64,000 nucleotides of DNA, taken from the NCBI GenBank assembly GCA_037190965.1, contig JBBCKI010000019.1, forward strand, positions 32,001-96,000, given 5' to 3'. Each line of letters opens with the position of its first letter. Within the stretch, counting starts at the first letter, position 1. The position numbers are program-made. Origin of the DNA: Chthoniobacteraceae bacterium (lineage in GTDB: Bacteria; Verrucomicrobiota; Verrucomicrobiia; Chthoniobacterales; Chthoniobacteraceae). Positions 33,201-39,200 of the stretch are shown one piece after another.

Positions 33201-36200
33201 TCGGGCCCGGTGTGGCTGCCTGTCGCGTTTGTCGCCAAGGCTTACCCCAACGCGGGGGGAGAGGCGGTTGCGCAGGGCTGGACGGAACTAGGAAACGCCT
33301 TTTTGAAGGGGGATGACACGGCCTTCAGGTCGGCTGCCGGGAAGTTTGCCAGCGGGCTTTCCGCGTTGCGTCCGGACGCCTACCCAAGCGCGGATGTCAT
33401 GAAGCTAGAGACCGTCTACGGCAAGGCTCATCCGTTCCGCTGGGCGTGGCTCCTCTACGCGCTGGCTGCAATCGTGCTTTGGGTGACCACGCTTTGGGCG
33501 AGGTCGGGCGGATATCGGATTGCCTGGGGCCTCATCTCCATCGGCTTCGTTCTCCAGATTGCGGGCTTTGTCGCCCGGATCATTATCGGCGGGCGGGGGC
33601 CGGTCACCAATATGTACGAGTCGGTGATCTGGGCGGCCTTCGGGACGATCCTCTTCGCCATGATTCTGGAGGCGATCTACCGTTCGCGGTATATGTTCCT
33701 CGGGGCGACTCCCGTGGCGGTGGTTTGCCTCATTCTTGCCGACACACAGACGACCATTCTCAAGCCTTCCATCGATCCGCTGGCGGCGGTATTGAGGAAC
33801 AACTTCTGGCTATCCACCCATGTCACCAGCATCACGCTCAGCTACGCGGCGTTTGCGCTGGCGCTCGGGGTGGGGCATATCGTGTTGGGAAAAGTGTTTT
33901 TCAGGCGGCCTGTTTCCGCCGCCCTTTACAACTATCTCTACCGCTCGCTCCAGATCGGGGTTCTGTTGCTGGCCATCGGGACGATTCTCGGCGGCGTCTG
34001 GGCCAACGTCTCCTGGGGCCGGTTTTGGGACTGGGACCCGAAGGAAACCTGGGCGTTAATCGCGCTGTTAGGTTATCTGGCAATCCTGCACGGTCGCATT
34101 GCCGGGTGGTGGAAAGGTTTTGGCCTGGCAGTCGGCTCGGTGCTGGCGTTCCAGTCGGTGCTGATGGCGTGGTACGGCGTCAATTTTGTCCTCGGCGAGG
34201 GCTTGCATAGTTATGGATTCGGGACGGGGGGCTTCCCTGCCGTGCTCGCTTATGTCATTGCCGAGGTCGTCTTCGTCGCCCTGGTTATTGCCCGTCGCAA
34301 GAAGGAGTCGGCGGCGGCCGAACCCGAGGTCGAAGAGATCGAGGCATAGTTGCGTCCGAGCTTGAAGTTATTGCCGAGAGTTTCCAATTCTTCCGTTTCA
34401 AATTTGAATCTCAGATTTGAGATTGACCGCGAAGGGACTGGACGCTATAGACCTGTCTAGTGAGAGACGACGACACTGTTGGGAAGAAAGCATCAACTTC
34501 AATGAGTCACCAATGGCGCCTCAGGTACTATCGTCCTGCTTCGATCGGATTTGCGGGGGTTACCCTGACTATTCTAAGCCTCATTGCCCTGATGGCCTCG
34601 CCGTTTCTCCTGGTGTTTCAGCAGATGAACGGAGGCTGGGGTTATTTCCCGGATGTCAATCCTTTCTACGTGGCTGGGGCTCAGGCGGGGATCTCCGGAA
34701 CGCTCTGCATTCTGTCATTCTTTATACTGAGGGGACATAACTGGGCCCGTTGGGGGTTTCTTCTTTTCGGAGCGGCTGTGCTCGGTTTGCTGGTGATTCG
34801 GTTCGCCTCTCCTTGGGAAGGGTTGCCCGCCTTGGGATATGTGAGCTTTGCGGTGATTTTGTTTCGTCCGACTGCCAATGACTTTTTCAATCTCGCCAAG
34901 GCGTTTTAATGCGATGTCAGGCGAGTTCCTTGGATAAGAGGGAAGCGTTCTCTCGTTGCCAATCTCCAGATTGGTATTGCCAATATCCCCGAATCTCTGA
35001 TTCGAAAGTCTTGTCATCTCAGGGTGCCGAAACGGACAAGGGTTGCGAAACTGGAGTTTCGAAGATACGTGTCGTTCCCAAACAGAGTTTTGGAACGAGG
35101 AAAATTTTGCCAAGGCGTTTTAATCGCAACTAGCTCCCCGCATTCATGGCGGTAAGCCAAGCCTGGTAGGCGGCGGGCGAGATCTCGGAGGGTTTGATTT
35201 CGCTGCGTCCTCCCCAGAAGACGCTGGTATAGTTGACGGGAATCCCGCACTCCGCCAAATGCGCGTCGATGGCGGCTTTATGTTCCAGGAGGCGCGGTTT
35301 TTCCGTGCCGTGGGCGACGGCCATGATGTTGACGTTGCAAAAGTCCGGTCCTCCTTCGCGCCAGTAGCAGTGCGTCAGAATTTCATGACGGCCCACTTCG
35401 CCACCGGCCTCGATTTCACGCCCCGCCGGGACGGCCCAATGGAAGAGCCCGTTGAATCGCGTGACTCTCTGCCCGGTTTGTAGCGGTTTGACGTGCTCTA
35501 GGAACGTGGAGAACCGGCCAATGACTCGCCGCTTTTGAAGTGACTCGGCCACTTCGTAGAACGTCGGCAGCGACACTTCCGCTTCCAGCGCGCGCGCCTT
35601 CCAGGGGTGCGGGCCGATTTCTTCGAGGGCAAGCTCGCGCTTGAGGGCGACGAGAACGCGCCACTCCAGGTCGCCCAGGGTGACCACACCGGTTGGAATC
35701 ATGGAGGCGGGCTGCGGGGCTCGCGTGCCCGGTTCGACGCTTTTGCGCCGCACATGGCCCACTCCGAGCGTGAAGATCCCCCTTGCGGGCATCAGCCTGT
35801 ATTGCTCGCAACCGGTTCGCTCCATCAGTAAAGCGGCGTGGCGCTCCATCGAGACTCCTGCGGGGACTTTCAAGGTGGTCCAGAGCCGGTAGTCGGACCC
35901 GGCGGTGGCCTGGTCCGTGGAGCGCACGACGACGTGACCCGAGAACGGGTCTTCCTTCGACATGAAGTCGAACGCGGCGTTGAGTTTTTCCTCCGGCACT
36001 TTCCATGCCACCAGCGCCCCTTGCGCCAGGTTCGTGGCAATCAATGTCTGGCGAACCCGCCGGATCGTCCCCGCCGCAAGCATGGCGCGAATTCTCTCCA
36101 TGACGCTTTCCAACGGCACGCCGGAGCGTTCGGCAATGAGAAGGAACGGTTCGCGGACAAACCCCTGGATTTTATCTTCGGAGATGGAAAGAATCCGGGC

Positions 36201-39200
36201 ATTGAGGGGGTCGGTATGGTCGATGGGTATGGCAGCAGCGCTCACGATGTTTTACAGTCGTTCGAAACTCGTTGATTTCCAGCGAGATGGATTTTTTTTG
36301 AAAAAACTCTAAGAAACCCCCGCGATGCCGCGTTGACTCTTTGAAAAACCCCATGTCAACCAGCCCCCTGAGTTGGATCGAACCGATCCTGGAACGTTAC
36401 GAGCGGCCTCTGCTCCAGTACGCCGCCAGCATTTGCGGCAACGCCGAGAATGCCCGGGATGTGGTTCAGGACACCTTTGTGCGGCTGGCACGGCATGGCG
36501 CACCCGAGGCGGAGCATCTTGCCCCGTGGCTCTTCACTGTTTGCCGAAACCGCGCCCTGGATTGGCGTCGCAAGGAGGATCGAATCATGCCAATGAACCA
36601 CGAACCGCACGATGCGGAGACGGCCGCCGACGCGCCGAGTCCTGCCGCGTCGCTGCAACAAAAGGAGACGGCAGAGCGCCTCGCCGTTTTGTTGGAGCAC
36701 CTTTCCGAGAACCAGCGGGAGGTGATCCGGCTGCGCTTCCAGTGCGATCTGAGCTACCGGGAGATCAGCGAGATCACGCAACTCGGCGTCAGCAACGTCG
36801 GGTTTCTCATTCACACGGGCCTTAAAAAGCTGCGCCAGCTGTGGCCCGAAAATCTGGAGGTAAAATCATGAATCTGGACGATCCCAAACTGACGGCTTAC
36901 GCCTTGGGGGAATTGGACGAATTGACCGGCGAGGAACGCCTCGCTCTGGAGAAGCTGCTTGCGGAATCCGCGGAGGCCCGCGCCTTTGTGGAAGAGACCG
37001 CCGCGTTTGCTCAAACCCTGAAAGGGGAGTTCCTCACGGAAATGCCAGCGACCGCGCTGAGGCAGGTAAGCCGCGCCGAGTTGCTCTCGGAGGTTGAGGT
37101 GGCGAGAAAAATCGCGCCTTTTTCCGCAGGACGGCGGGTGGCATGGGCCGTGGGGTTGAGCGCAATGGCCGCCGCGTTGGCGACGGTTTTTTACCTGCCG
37201 TTTGAGGCGAAGGAAGCGGAACGTTCGAAGGCGCGTTCGCGGAACGAACGGGTCTCGGTGCTCACGGAAGCCGGGGAGCGGAAAGTGGAAGGCAATCTGG
37301 TGAAGGCGAAGGCGATCGATGCCGCAATCGGAGACAACGTGGTTATGAATGAGCCGATTGACTCGGAAACAGCTCTAGCTCTTTCGAGCATAACGACTTC
37401 CGCTCCATCTGCAACGCTGGACAGTTTGGTAGTGACTCCTCCTATGGAGTTGAAGTCGCCTGCAATCCCGGCAGCAGTTCCTCCACCTATCGTTTCGGTA
37501 GCTGGGGTTTCGGCACCTGTGCTTGCCTCCAAGTTGACTGCTGCACAAATCAAAGAAGTGGCGGCATTTACCGGAGGTTGGGCGAGAAGAGAAGGAGCTT
37601 CAGATTTTCGGGGGAATGGGCTGGGCGCAATTCATGAGATGGAGAGGAATGTAAGGGAACGACGTGCATCGGAGGCCTTCAATACCGAAGCCTACGCCGA
37701 CCTGGACGAAAACCCGTTCCTCGCCGTTGGGCAGAACCCTCTCTCCACCTTCTCCATTGATGTCGATACGGCGAGCTATTCGAACGTGCGGCGGTTCCTC
37801 ACGGCCGGGCAGCGGCCTCCGGTCGGGGCGGTGCGGATCGAGGAGTTGCTCAATTACTTCCGTTATGACTACGCACCGCCGAAGGGTGACGCGCCGTTCG
37901 CTACGCATGTGGAGGTGGCCCAATGCCCATGGCAACCCGCTCACCGGCTGGTACGGATCGGGTTGAAAGGGCGCGAGCTTCGCGAGGAGGGGCGCGCGTC
38001 GAGTAACCTGGTGTTCCTGATCGATGTTTCCGGCTCCATGAACGAACCCAACAAGCTGCCGCTCCTCAAGCAGAGCATGCGCCTCCTTGTGGAGAAGCTG
38101 GGAGAGAACGACCGGGTGTCGATGGTCGTCTACGCAGGCGCGGCGGGCCTGGTCCTTCCAGCCACGCGCGGCGACAAGAAGGAGGCGATTCTCGCCGCGC
38201 TGGAACGGTTGCAGGCGGGCGGGTCCACCAATGGCGCGGGCGGCATCGGGCTCGCCTATGAAACCGCCGTGGAAAACATGATCCCGGGGGGAATCAACCG
38301 CGTGATTCTCGCGACCGATGGCGACTTCAATGTCGGCGTGACCAATGAGTCCGAACTGGCTCGATTGATCGAGGCAAAGGCAAAGACGGGGGTATACCTT
38401 ACGGTGCTCGGTTTCGGCCAGGGGAACTACAACGACGCCACGATGAAGAAGCTCTCCACCAAGGGGAACGGCAACTACGCCTATATCGATTCGCTGCGCG
38501 AAGGGCGCAAGGTGCTCGTGGAGCAGATCGGCGGGACGCTCGTGACCATCGCCAAGGATGTGAAGATCCAGGTCGAGTTCAACCCGCGCGTCGCCGGCAC
38601 CTACCGGTTGATCGGGTATGAAAACCGGCTCTTGAGGAAGGAGGACTTCAACGATGATAAGAAGGATGCCGGTGAGATCGGCGCCGGGCATACGGTCACC
38701 GCGCTTTACGAGGTCGTTCCGGTTGGAGTCAGCGCCGGGACCGGCAAGGTGGACGCCCTGAAATACCAGCCCGCGCCCGCGGAAACCGTGCGCGGCTTGG
38801 AAACGCCTGCGTCGGAAGAGTTGCTCACCGTCAAGCTGCGCTACAAGAAGCCGGACGGGGAGACCAGCTTGCTTCTCGAGCATCCGGTGACCGATCGCGG
38901 GGCGGCGATTGGAGAAAGCTCGAAGGACTTCCGCTTCGCCGCCGCCGTGGCCGAGTTCGGGATGCTACTGAAGAACTCGGCTCATGCGGGATCGGCAACC
39001 TGGGAAAGCGCCCGGGAACTGGCGACGGAAGGGAAGGGGATCGACGAGGGAGGCTACCGGGCCGAGTTCATCGAGTTGCTGGAGAAAGTAAAAGGGTTTG
39101 GTTTGCAGGATCGGTAACGGTCGCGGACCAAAAAAAAGCCCTCCCGCACAAGGATTGCGCGGGAGGGCGAAAATATTTTGGAGTACAACCGCTAGTACTT

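What a model noticed while it worked through the whole genome (the two positions that open the first line are those of the whole stretch)
35130..36245. Haem made by a siroheme route with fused AhbAB and ChdC but no AhbC
The genome has many haem proteins but no HemE, HemH, AhbC or AhbD. It has a fused AhbA-AhbB siroheme decarboxylase (g00926) beside the cytochrome c maturation genes and a ChdC (g02092). The same set recurs across Chthoniobacterales, which implies a hybrid siroheme-to-coprohaem route with an unknown enzyme for the AhbC step.
Evidence so far: No URO-D, ferrochelatase or SPASM radical SAM here. Of 23 order genomes, 9 (G000, G152, G155, G156, G158, G162, G244, G245, G246) have AhbAB and ChdC with neither HemE nor a strong AhbC hit, including the closed G158 and the two-contig G156; 7 have AhbC. 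AhbAB and ChdC were confirmed by blastx in G158, G156, G162, G155 and G244. A paper search found nothing.
(Added by a program. Inside this text positions count along the whole contig: contig position 32,001 is position 1 of the stretch shown here. "Call 12" and the like, gene names such as g00115 and contig names such as C1 are that model's own, and its searches are not shown. The text may have been shortened before it was handed on; [...] marks where a part breaks off. The agent that wrote the report below was given it as the finding of a first reader that could run no searches.)

Follow-up and report, generated by a model that had tools for sequence, protein, structure and literature searches.

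The report
Haem pathway missing its radical enzyme
This bacterium and many unrelated microbes appear to make haem from siroheme without the oxygen-sensitive enzyme thought necessary for one step, and an unstudied reductase-like protein that travels with the pathway is the best candidate to fill that gap.

Summary
Confirmed. Window 35130-36245 (minus strand) is a fused AhbAB siroheme decarboxylase with its catalytic motif. This genome has ChdC, CobA-HemD and CbiX but no AhbC, AhbD, HemE, HemH or SirC. The same gap (AhbAB + ChdC, no AhbC, no HemE) holds in 34 of 61 order genomes, four of them single-contig. Eleven of the 34 have no siroheme-using reductase, so their siroheme branch can only serve haem.

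Best candidate for the AhbC step is one aldo-keto reductase (AKR) family. It is in 41 of 61 genomes and 0 of 11 lacking AhbAB. With a divergent sister branch it covers 33 of the 34 gap genomes. It sits in the hem operon of Gemmatimonadota and beside chdC in Thaumarchaeota, both of which have SirC. A split DR2241 (CbiX + 4Fe-4S protein) probably fills a second gap, SirC.

The scan found the AKR link before on other DNA (a Chloroflexota operon). The gap itself was noted for three archaea in 2010 and left unexplained. No activity is shown. Route 0.85; AKR acting in that step 0.6.

The parts
35130..36245 (-). Fused AhbAB siroheme decarboxylase, 371 aa; FSGHV at 101, FLEH at 248, HCYWR at 292
32550..34349 (+). 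CcsA/ResC cytochrome c synthase (haem user, convergent neighbour, not part of the route)
   Evidence: PF01578
30713..32683 (+). ResB/CcsB cytochrome c biogenesis protein (haem user)
   Evidence: PF05140
28585..29520 (+). CtaB haem O synthase (needs haem b)
   Evidence: TIGR01473 over cut-off
27620..28588 (+). CtaA haem A synthase (needs haem b). The other route genes lie outside the window in G000: chdC C42:14866-15693; AKR C48:18532-19569; cbiX C45:6652-7596; DR2241-C C45:6002-6655; cobA-hemD, hemC, hemA C6:13999-17880; DUF1802 C68:101388-101990
   Evidence: PF02628

Best explanation
These microbes make haem b by an oxygen-tolerant form of the siroheme route. Uroporphyrinogen III is methylated by CobA-HemD. 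Precorrin-2 is oxidised and iron is inserted, by SirC plus CbiX in Gemmatimonadota and probably by a split DR2241 (CbiX + 4Fe-4S protein) in Verrucomicrobia. AhbAB gives didecarboxysiroheme (DDSH). The ring A/B acetates are then removed without a radical-SAM enzyme, and ChdC finishes with H2O2. The haem-linked AKR family (AKR1, or its sister AKR2) acts in the acetate-removal step. Most likely chemistry: bound NAD(P)+ takes a hydride from C3 or C8 of DDSH, the neighbouring quaternary carbon sheds its acetate as a two-carbon acid or CO2 + C1, and the ring aromatises; the DHRxxR motif holds substrate carboxylates. SHOWN: gene identities, presence, absence, linkage. INFERRED: every activity, the role of the AKR and of DR2241-C, and the chemistry.
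For: Gap in 34 of 61 genomes. No NIR_SIR in 12 of 61, all with AhbAB+ChdC, 11 in the gap set. CobA-HemD intact in G009. AKR1 in 41 of 61, 0 of 11 AhbAB-negative; it is the only AKR of G009 and 64% identical to G000's (77th percentile of 593 shared genes). Five of the six gap genomes without AKR1 carry AKR2. AKR2 shares the family motifs (hhalign 100%), scores AKR1 members above other AKRs (median 125 vs 70 bits) and groups with them (SH-aLRT 94). Gemmatimonadota: hemB in 70 of 80 AKR loci and 39 of 39 with enough flank, ahbAB in 28 of 39; AhbC 0 of 20, SirC 10 of 10, CbiX 10 of 10, HemE 0 of 5, ChdC 5 of 5. Thaumarchaeota: chdC-like gene just upstream of the AKR in 42 of 42 loci, ahbAB just downstream in 21 of 39, followed by sirC-hemA-hemB. 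N. maritimus lacks ahbC/D (PMC3004389).
Against: No biochemistry. AKR1 is kept beside AhbC in 11 of 12 order genomes and 5 of 5 Eremiobacterota; ChdC is likewise kept beside AhbD, so this does not decide. G002 (710 contigs), Luteolibacter pohnpeiensis G065 and G074 have no AhbC and no AKR hit at E<=1e-25, a limit that AKR2 barely passes. AKR2 lacks the catalytic Asp and Lys in all 76 of 80 copies that could be read, and none of 80 AKR2 loci has chdC or ahbAB nearby. AKR2 was not searched in AhbAB-negative genomes. In the larger mixture-model tree the AKR1+AKR2 group had only 46/63 support. The reported AKR-ChdC fusion was not recovered. I know no AKR that breaks such a C-C bond (own knowledge). 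Kin genomes are not independent.
Confidence: 0.6

Rival explanations
1. ChdC of this clade is bifunctional: its H2O2-made tyrosyl radical, which faces rings A and B, first strips the acetates from DDSH and then decarboxylates the propionates. The AKR only helps, by keeping the substrate reduced or handing it over.
For: AhbAB + ChdC is the only pair found in every gap genome, including G065. The loop by the substrate entrance is 40-43 residues in the 19 of 35 ChdCs measured, about 25 longer than in 1t0t. AhbC and ChdC act on the same rings (PMC10114771).
Against: The catalytic residues are those of ordinary ChdC. The thaumarchaeal ChdC-like protein is a short 227-aa type yet sits in the same gene set. 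It does not explain why an AKR is so tightly kept.
Confidence: 0.15
2. The AKR works at another step (precorrin-2 oxidation, siroheme redox, chaperoning), and the AhbC step is done by HemW, DUF1802 or a protein I did not recognise.
For: SirC is over cut-off in 0 of 20 order genomes, so an NAD(P) dehydrogenase is wanted there; the AKR lies next to cbiX in 4 genomes. HemW is kept in G009. DUF1802 lies between chdC and the AKR in 40 of 42 thaumarchaeal loci and is in G000, G009 and 5 of 5 genomes searched, including G065. About 545 of 694 shared G009 genes were classed by eye from their first residues, 149 by Pfam.
Against: The AKR coexists with SirC in Gemmatimonadota and Thaumarchaeota, and is missing from siroheme users without AhbAB. 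DUF1802 has an ASCH/PUA fold (5guq, Z 10.6, rmsd 3.0, 125 aligned), occurs in G008, Synechococcus and Deinococcus, is poorly conserved (17th percentile) and is absent from the Haloferax and Sulfolobus controls. HemW shows no link to haem genes in G009.
Confidence: 0.13
3. No full synthesis: haem or coprohaem is imported, and AhbAB is a regulator or a relic.
For: AhbAB has an AsnC-like fold. PMC3004389 doubted haem synthesis in archaea lacking nirJ1/J2.
Against: The catalytic motif is kept; AhbAB is 64% identical between G000 and the reduced G009. G009 keeps the whole upper pathway with no other siroheme user, and I saw no outer-membrane haem receptor among its genes (by eye).
Confidence: 0.05
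4. The route skips methylation: CbiX puts iron into uroporphyrin III and this divergent AhbAB removes all four acetates, so neither SirC nor AhbC is needed.
For: One idea would explain both gaps in Verrucomicrobia. The AhbAB is a distinct subfamily, below NCBIfam cut-offs.
Against: The methyltransferase half of CobA-HemD is as well kept as the HemD half in G009, which has no siroheme enzyme. Gemmatimonadota with the same AhbAB type have SirC.
Confidence: 0.04
5. ahbC or hemE is simply unassembled.
For: G000 is 97% complete in 73 contigs; two family relatives have AhbC.
Against: Same gap in single-contig G009, G024, G034, G048 and in 34 of 61 genomes. It could still be true of G000 alone.
Confidence: 0.03

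Closest known systems
Siroheme-dependent (AHB/SHD) haem pathway of Desulfovibrio and Methanosarcina: AhbAB, AhbC, AhbD (PMC7242693, PMC10114771)
   Same: CobA-HemD, chelatase, AhbAB; inferred intermediates siroheme, DDSH, coprohaem
   Different: No AhbC or AhbD; ChdC ends the route; no SirC in the Verrucomicrobia; an AKR family tracks the route
Haloferax volcanii aerobic haem synthesis, PitA/ChdC (PMC5746218)
   Same: ChdC used in air, no UroD/CgoX/CpfC; the authors allow an unknown source of coprohaem
   Different: It has annotated AhbC, AhbD and SirC (PMC8305020); here AhbC is wholly missing
Nitrosopumilus maritimus, Sulfolobus acidocaldarius, Haloquadratum walsbyi (PMC3004389)
   Same: ahbAB without nirJ1/J2 (ahbC/D)
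   Different: Read there as doubtful haem makers; no ChdC link or candidate enzyme given
Coproporphyrin-dependent pathway (UroD, CgoX, CpfC, ChdC)
   Same: Firmicute-like ChdC, 1t0t E 1.7e-56
   Different: No UroD, CgoX or CpfC
AKR11 family (1pz1, 1ynp, 1pyf)
   Same: TIM-barrel fold, TM 0.72-0.78; Asp-Tyr-Lys-His tetrad in AKR1
   Different: 25-30% identity; family motifs GPAxG, RVxxxG, DHRxxR; AKR2 lacks Asp and Lys
DR2241 of Deinococcus radiodurans (PDB 2jh3)
   Same: CbiX domains plus PF18069/PF18009 4Fe-4S domains
   Different: Split into two genes here; no function is established in the papers I could search

Membership tests
AhbAB/NirDL siroheme decarboxylase | Two HTH + AsnC-like repeats | tested here: met
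   PF17805 twice; 4ch7 aligned over 18-320
AhbAB/NirDL siroheme decarboxylase | Catalytic HxYxR (His98/Tyr100/Arg102 of AhbB, PMC4145669) | tested here: met
   HCYWR at 292; 167 of 186 homologues
AhbAB/NirDL siroheme decarboxylase | NCBIfam AhbA/AhbB cut-offs | tested here: inconclusive
   53.6 of 140 and 82.2 of 125 bits; models are for single subunits
AhbAB/NirDL siroheme decarboxylase | Siroheme to DDSH activity | not testable with these tools
   needs an assay
Canonical siroheme-dependent pathway | AhbC radical-SAM/SPASM deacetylase | tested here: not met
   no TIGR04546 match in G000, G009, G024; radical-SAM set assigned
Canonical siroheme-dependent pathway | AhbD | tested here: not met
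   AhbD-like genes show in the same search only in AhbC genomes and G031; none in G000
Canonical siroheme-dependent pathway | SUMT and chelatase | tested here: met
   CobA-HemD, CbiX
Canonical siroheme-dependent pathway | SirC/CysG dehydrogenase | tested here: not met
   TIGR01470 over cut-off in 0 of 20 order genomes
Coproporphyrin- or protoporphyrin-dependent pathway | UroD/HemE, HemY, ferrochelatase | tested here: not met
Haem d1 (nir) pathway | NirJ, a close AhbC homologue | tested here: not met
   no hit in G000 or G009 to the AhbC model, which scores NirJ-type proteins; NirS/NirF not searched
ChdC/HemQ | PRK12276 cut-off; Tyr, Met, Lys, proximal His, distal Gln | tested here: met
   259 of 253 bits; Y169, M171, K173, H196, Q209 invariant in 24; roles of these residues recalled
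Aldo-keto reductase (AKR1) | Fold and Asp-Tyr-Lys-His tetrad | tested here: met
   D52, Y57, K82, H132 invariant in 24; fold
Aldo-keto reductase (AKR2) | Asp-Tyr-Lys-His tetrad | tested here: not met
   Asp and Lys replaced; Tyr and His kept
DR2241 family | PF18069 + PF18009 with four Cys, paired with two-domain CbiX | tested here: met
   CbiX adjacent in 15 of 30 loci

The most novel reading that the evidence does not exclude
A fourth, widespread haem route of aerobes (Verrucomicrobia, Gemmatimonadota, some Planctomycetes, ammonia-oxidising archaea) in which a nicotinamide-binding AKR-fold enzyme cleaves the C-C bonds that only the radical-SAM enzyme AhbC was known to cleave, while a 4Fe-4S DR2241 module replaces SirC in Verrucomicrobia.
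Probability: 0.45. Interest if true: 0.9.

Novelty: new variant of a known kind. Interest (0 to 1): 0.8.

Why it matters
The reviews I read in passages list three haem routes and tie the siroheme route to two radical-SAM enzymes; AhbC has not been studied purified (PMC10114771). Abundant soil, freshwater and marine microbes with haem oxidases fit none of the three. A named candidate turns the unexplained 2010 gap in Nitrosopumilus, and the unknown aerobic coprohaem source in Haloferax, into a one-enzyme assay. It would also give a first role to an unnamed AKR family and to DR2241, and may be new C-C cleavage chemistry.

Tried and rejected
Neighbours of ahbAB in Verrucomicrobia: no conserved partner in 30 + 80 loci. 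Long open frames at ahbAB loci were not fusions. DR2241-C as AhbC substitute: rejected, since it is in AhbAB-negative G008 and G023 and the Deinococcus control, and in 0 of 9 non-Verrucomicrobia AhbAB genomes; only one of these is a Gemmatimonadota. Genes between hemB and the AKR in Gemmatimonadota look unrelated to haem. Haem loci of seven AKR1-less genomes gave no further shared gene. Weak AhbC-model hits checked were PqqE or MoaA; the five weak Gemmatimonadota hits were not checked. Searches for longer forms of AKR1, ChdC and DUF1802 gave read-through artefacts, haloarchaeal PitA and no AKR-ChdC fusion; such blanks are weak. No plasmid AKR2. No RNA holder listed for the gene. Paper searches with no description of this route or candidate: (listings and abstract starts only). 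The 2017 MMBR review and the DR2241 structure paper were not held or not found; supplements were not read, and Text S3 of PMC8305020 on cbiX may bear on DR2241.
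Full report
The gene. Window 35130-36245 is a 371-aa ORF on the minus strand. It converges on a plus-strand block of oxidase and cytochrome c genes (coxIII, coxIV, coxII, ctaA, ctaB, sco, DUF420, resB, ccsA) and diverges from an ECF sigma gene. It is a fused AhbAB/NirDL with the HxYxR motif that PMC4145669 (passages) shows to be catalytic. Orthologues in the order are 62-74% identical. The closeness to ccsA is not conserved in Verrucomicrobia, but in Gemmatimonadaceae ahbAB follows ccmABC directly.

The gap. G000 has ChdC, hemA, hemC, cobA-hemD, hemB, hemL and cbiX, and no HemE, HemH, AhbC or AhbD. In 61 order genomes: AhbAB 50 (G031 a fragment, G055 in two pieces), ChdC 50, both 48, full-length AhbC-like 16, true HemE 6 by my reading of scores over 350 bits. 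None of the AhbC-like proteins reaches the 650-bit cut-off (best 501); 14 of 16 showed an intact CxxxCxxC. Of the 48, 36 lack AhbC and 34 also lack HemE. HemH was searched by family in 5 genomes only. G004 and G014 carry a hemE-hemN-hemY-hemH cassette as well.

The route serves haem. Twelve of 61 genomes have no sulfite/nitrite reductase domain, and all twelve keep AhbAB, ChdC and DR2241-C. I read the whole 0.9-Mb G009. It keeps the upper pathway, an intact CobA-HemD (60% to G000), CbiX, AhbAB, ChdC, a cytochrome bc complex, a caa3-type oxidase, ctaA/B and resB/ccsA. Its radical-SAM genes are MqnC, HemW and KamA by Pfam, and MqnE, MiaB, LipA and a ThiH fragment by eye or by match to G000. A genome this reduced would hardly keep a dead-end branch (inference).

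A second gap. SirC is over cut-off in 0 of 20 order genomes and 0 of 2 Verrucomicrobiales isolates. These carry a split DR2241: a two-domain CbiX and a 4-Cys PF18069/PF18009 protein (53 of 61). It is missing in 9 of 9 non-Verrucomicrobia AhbAB genomes, 5 of 6 of which, where searched, have SirC; the Deinococcus control has it and no SirC hit. I therefore read DR2241-C as the likely SirC substitute (about 0.5). Against: the Haloferax control has both, and eight order genomes with a sulfite reductase lack DR2241-C, five of them shown to lack SirC too.

The candidate. AKR1 is in 41 of 61 genomes, all with AhbAB and ChdC, and in 0 of 11 without AhbAB. In Gemmatimonadaceae it ends the operon ccmABC-ahbAB-cobA/hemD-hemC-hemB. 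These genomes have SirC, CbiX and ChdC, and no AhbC or HemE in those searched; they were picked for having the AKR or AhbAB. A profile search reached Thermoleophilia, Phycisphaerae, Thaumarchaeota and a halophile-like protein. In 49 thaumarchaeal loci the order is chdC-like, DUF1802, AKR, often followed by a convergent ahbAB and sirC-hemA-hemB. The chdC-like call rests on BLAST likeness, not a family scan, and I did not search these genomes for AhbC; PMC3004389 (passages and table rows) reports none in N. maritimus. Three lineages thus place this AKR with different haem genes, two of them with SirC present, so it is not just a SirC stand-in.

The exceptions. Six gap genomes lack AKR1. Five carry AKR2, a long-branch sister family also seen in Verrucomicrobiales G066, G076 and G077. 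AKR1 or AKR2 covers 33 of 34. AKR2 keeps Tyr, His and the family motifs but has lost the catalytic Asp and Lys, which suggests the shared job is not ordinary carbonyl reduction (inference). Support for the joint family is good by profile and moderate by tree (94 on 31 chosen rows; 46/63 on 39 rows). AKR2 shows no haem neighbours in 80 loci, G065 shows neither form at the threshold used, and AKR2 was sought in AKR1 genomes only in G000 and G009, where it is absent.

Mechanism. From recalled formulas, DDSH to coprohaem is a formal loss of two acetic acids at quaternary C2 and C7, with H lost from C3 and C8. The AhbC mechanism is unknown (PMC7242693, passages). I favour hydride removal by AKR-bound NAD(P)+, followed by fragmentation. 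The main rival is a bifunctional ChdC, whose clade has a loop about 25 residues longer. DUF1802 is a weaker candidate: tightly linked in Thaumarchaeota and present in G065, but ASCH-fold and not specific to the route. HemW is not excluded.

What is known. Passages of PMC13564367, PMC10114771 and PMC7242693 describe three routes and no AhbC-free siroheme route. PMC5746218 (abstract and passages) allows an unknown coprohaem source in aerobic Haloferax. PMC8305020 and PMC8529089 (passages) add nothing on it. Eight searches found no paper naming this route or the AKR; most subscription journals are outside the library.

Verdict. A real, widespread pathway hole with a specific, testable candidate. 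New variant of the siroheme route; possibly new chemistry. Route 0.85, AKR in the AhbC step 0.6, AKR as sole catalyst about 0.4. Interest 0.8.

Noticed in passing
   Followed up: no
L048-L076; G009 317492-317731: A small Fer4_13 ferredoxin lies next to chdC in 12 of 30 loci and is 72% identical between G000 and G009 (94th percentile); in G000 it is on another contig. Possible electron partner.
   Followed up: partly
L259-L288: An amidohydrolase (aminofutalosine deaminase-like) follows DR2241-C in 25 of 30 loci, more often than cbiX precedes it (15 of 30).
   Followed up: partly
L323, L324, L332, L592: AKR1 is divergently next to cbiX in G042, G029, G014 and about 1.1 kb from it in G034.
   Followed up: partly
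L155:9567-10748: AhbC-like proteins also score on TIGR04347, a 'pseudo-SAM/SPASM' model named for halophiles; the haloarchaeal AhbC may be degenerate, which would bear on the aerobic step there.
   Followed up: no
L595, L596 (G004, G014): A classical hemE-hemN-hemY-hemH cassette sits in genomes that also hold AhbAB, ChdC and AKR1: possibly a route being replaced.
   Followed up: partly
G031 (L161, L347): Only an ahbAB fragment, no chdC, an AhbD-like gene without ahbC in 12 kb, and a truncated AKR1: the route looks decayed or mis-assembled.
   Followed up: partly
G080 (L563, L568): Two ChdC-family genes in one Gemmatimonadota genome.
   Followed up: no
P0013 and P0291: A halophile-like AKR1 and a PitA-type ChdC share the same longest-contig length (15,020), hinting that they are neighbours; unverified.
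   Followed up: no
G009 250361-254692, 312107-316512, 778414-787388: The reduced genome keeps type III secretion genes.
   Followed up: no
window 36341-39117 (+); 41957-43276 (+): ECF sigma factor with a vWA/YfbK protein just upstream of ahbAB; a secreted repeat protein with a C-terminal VPEP sorting motif.
   Followed up: no
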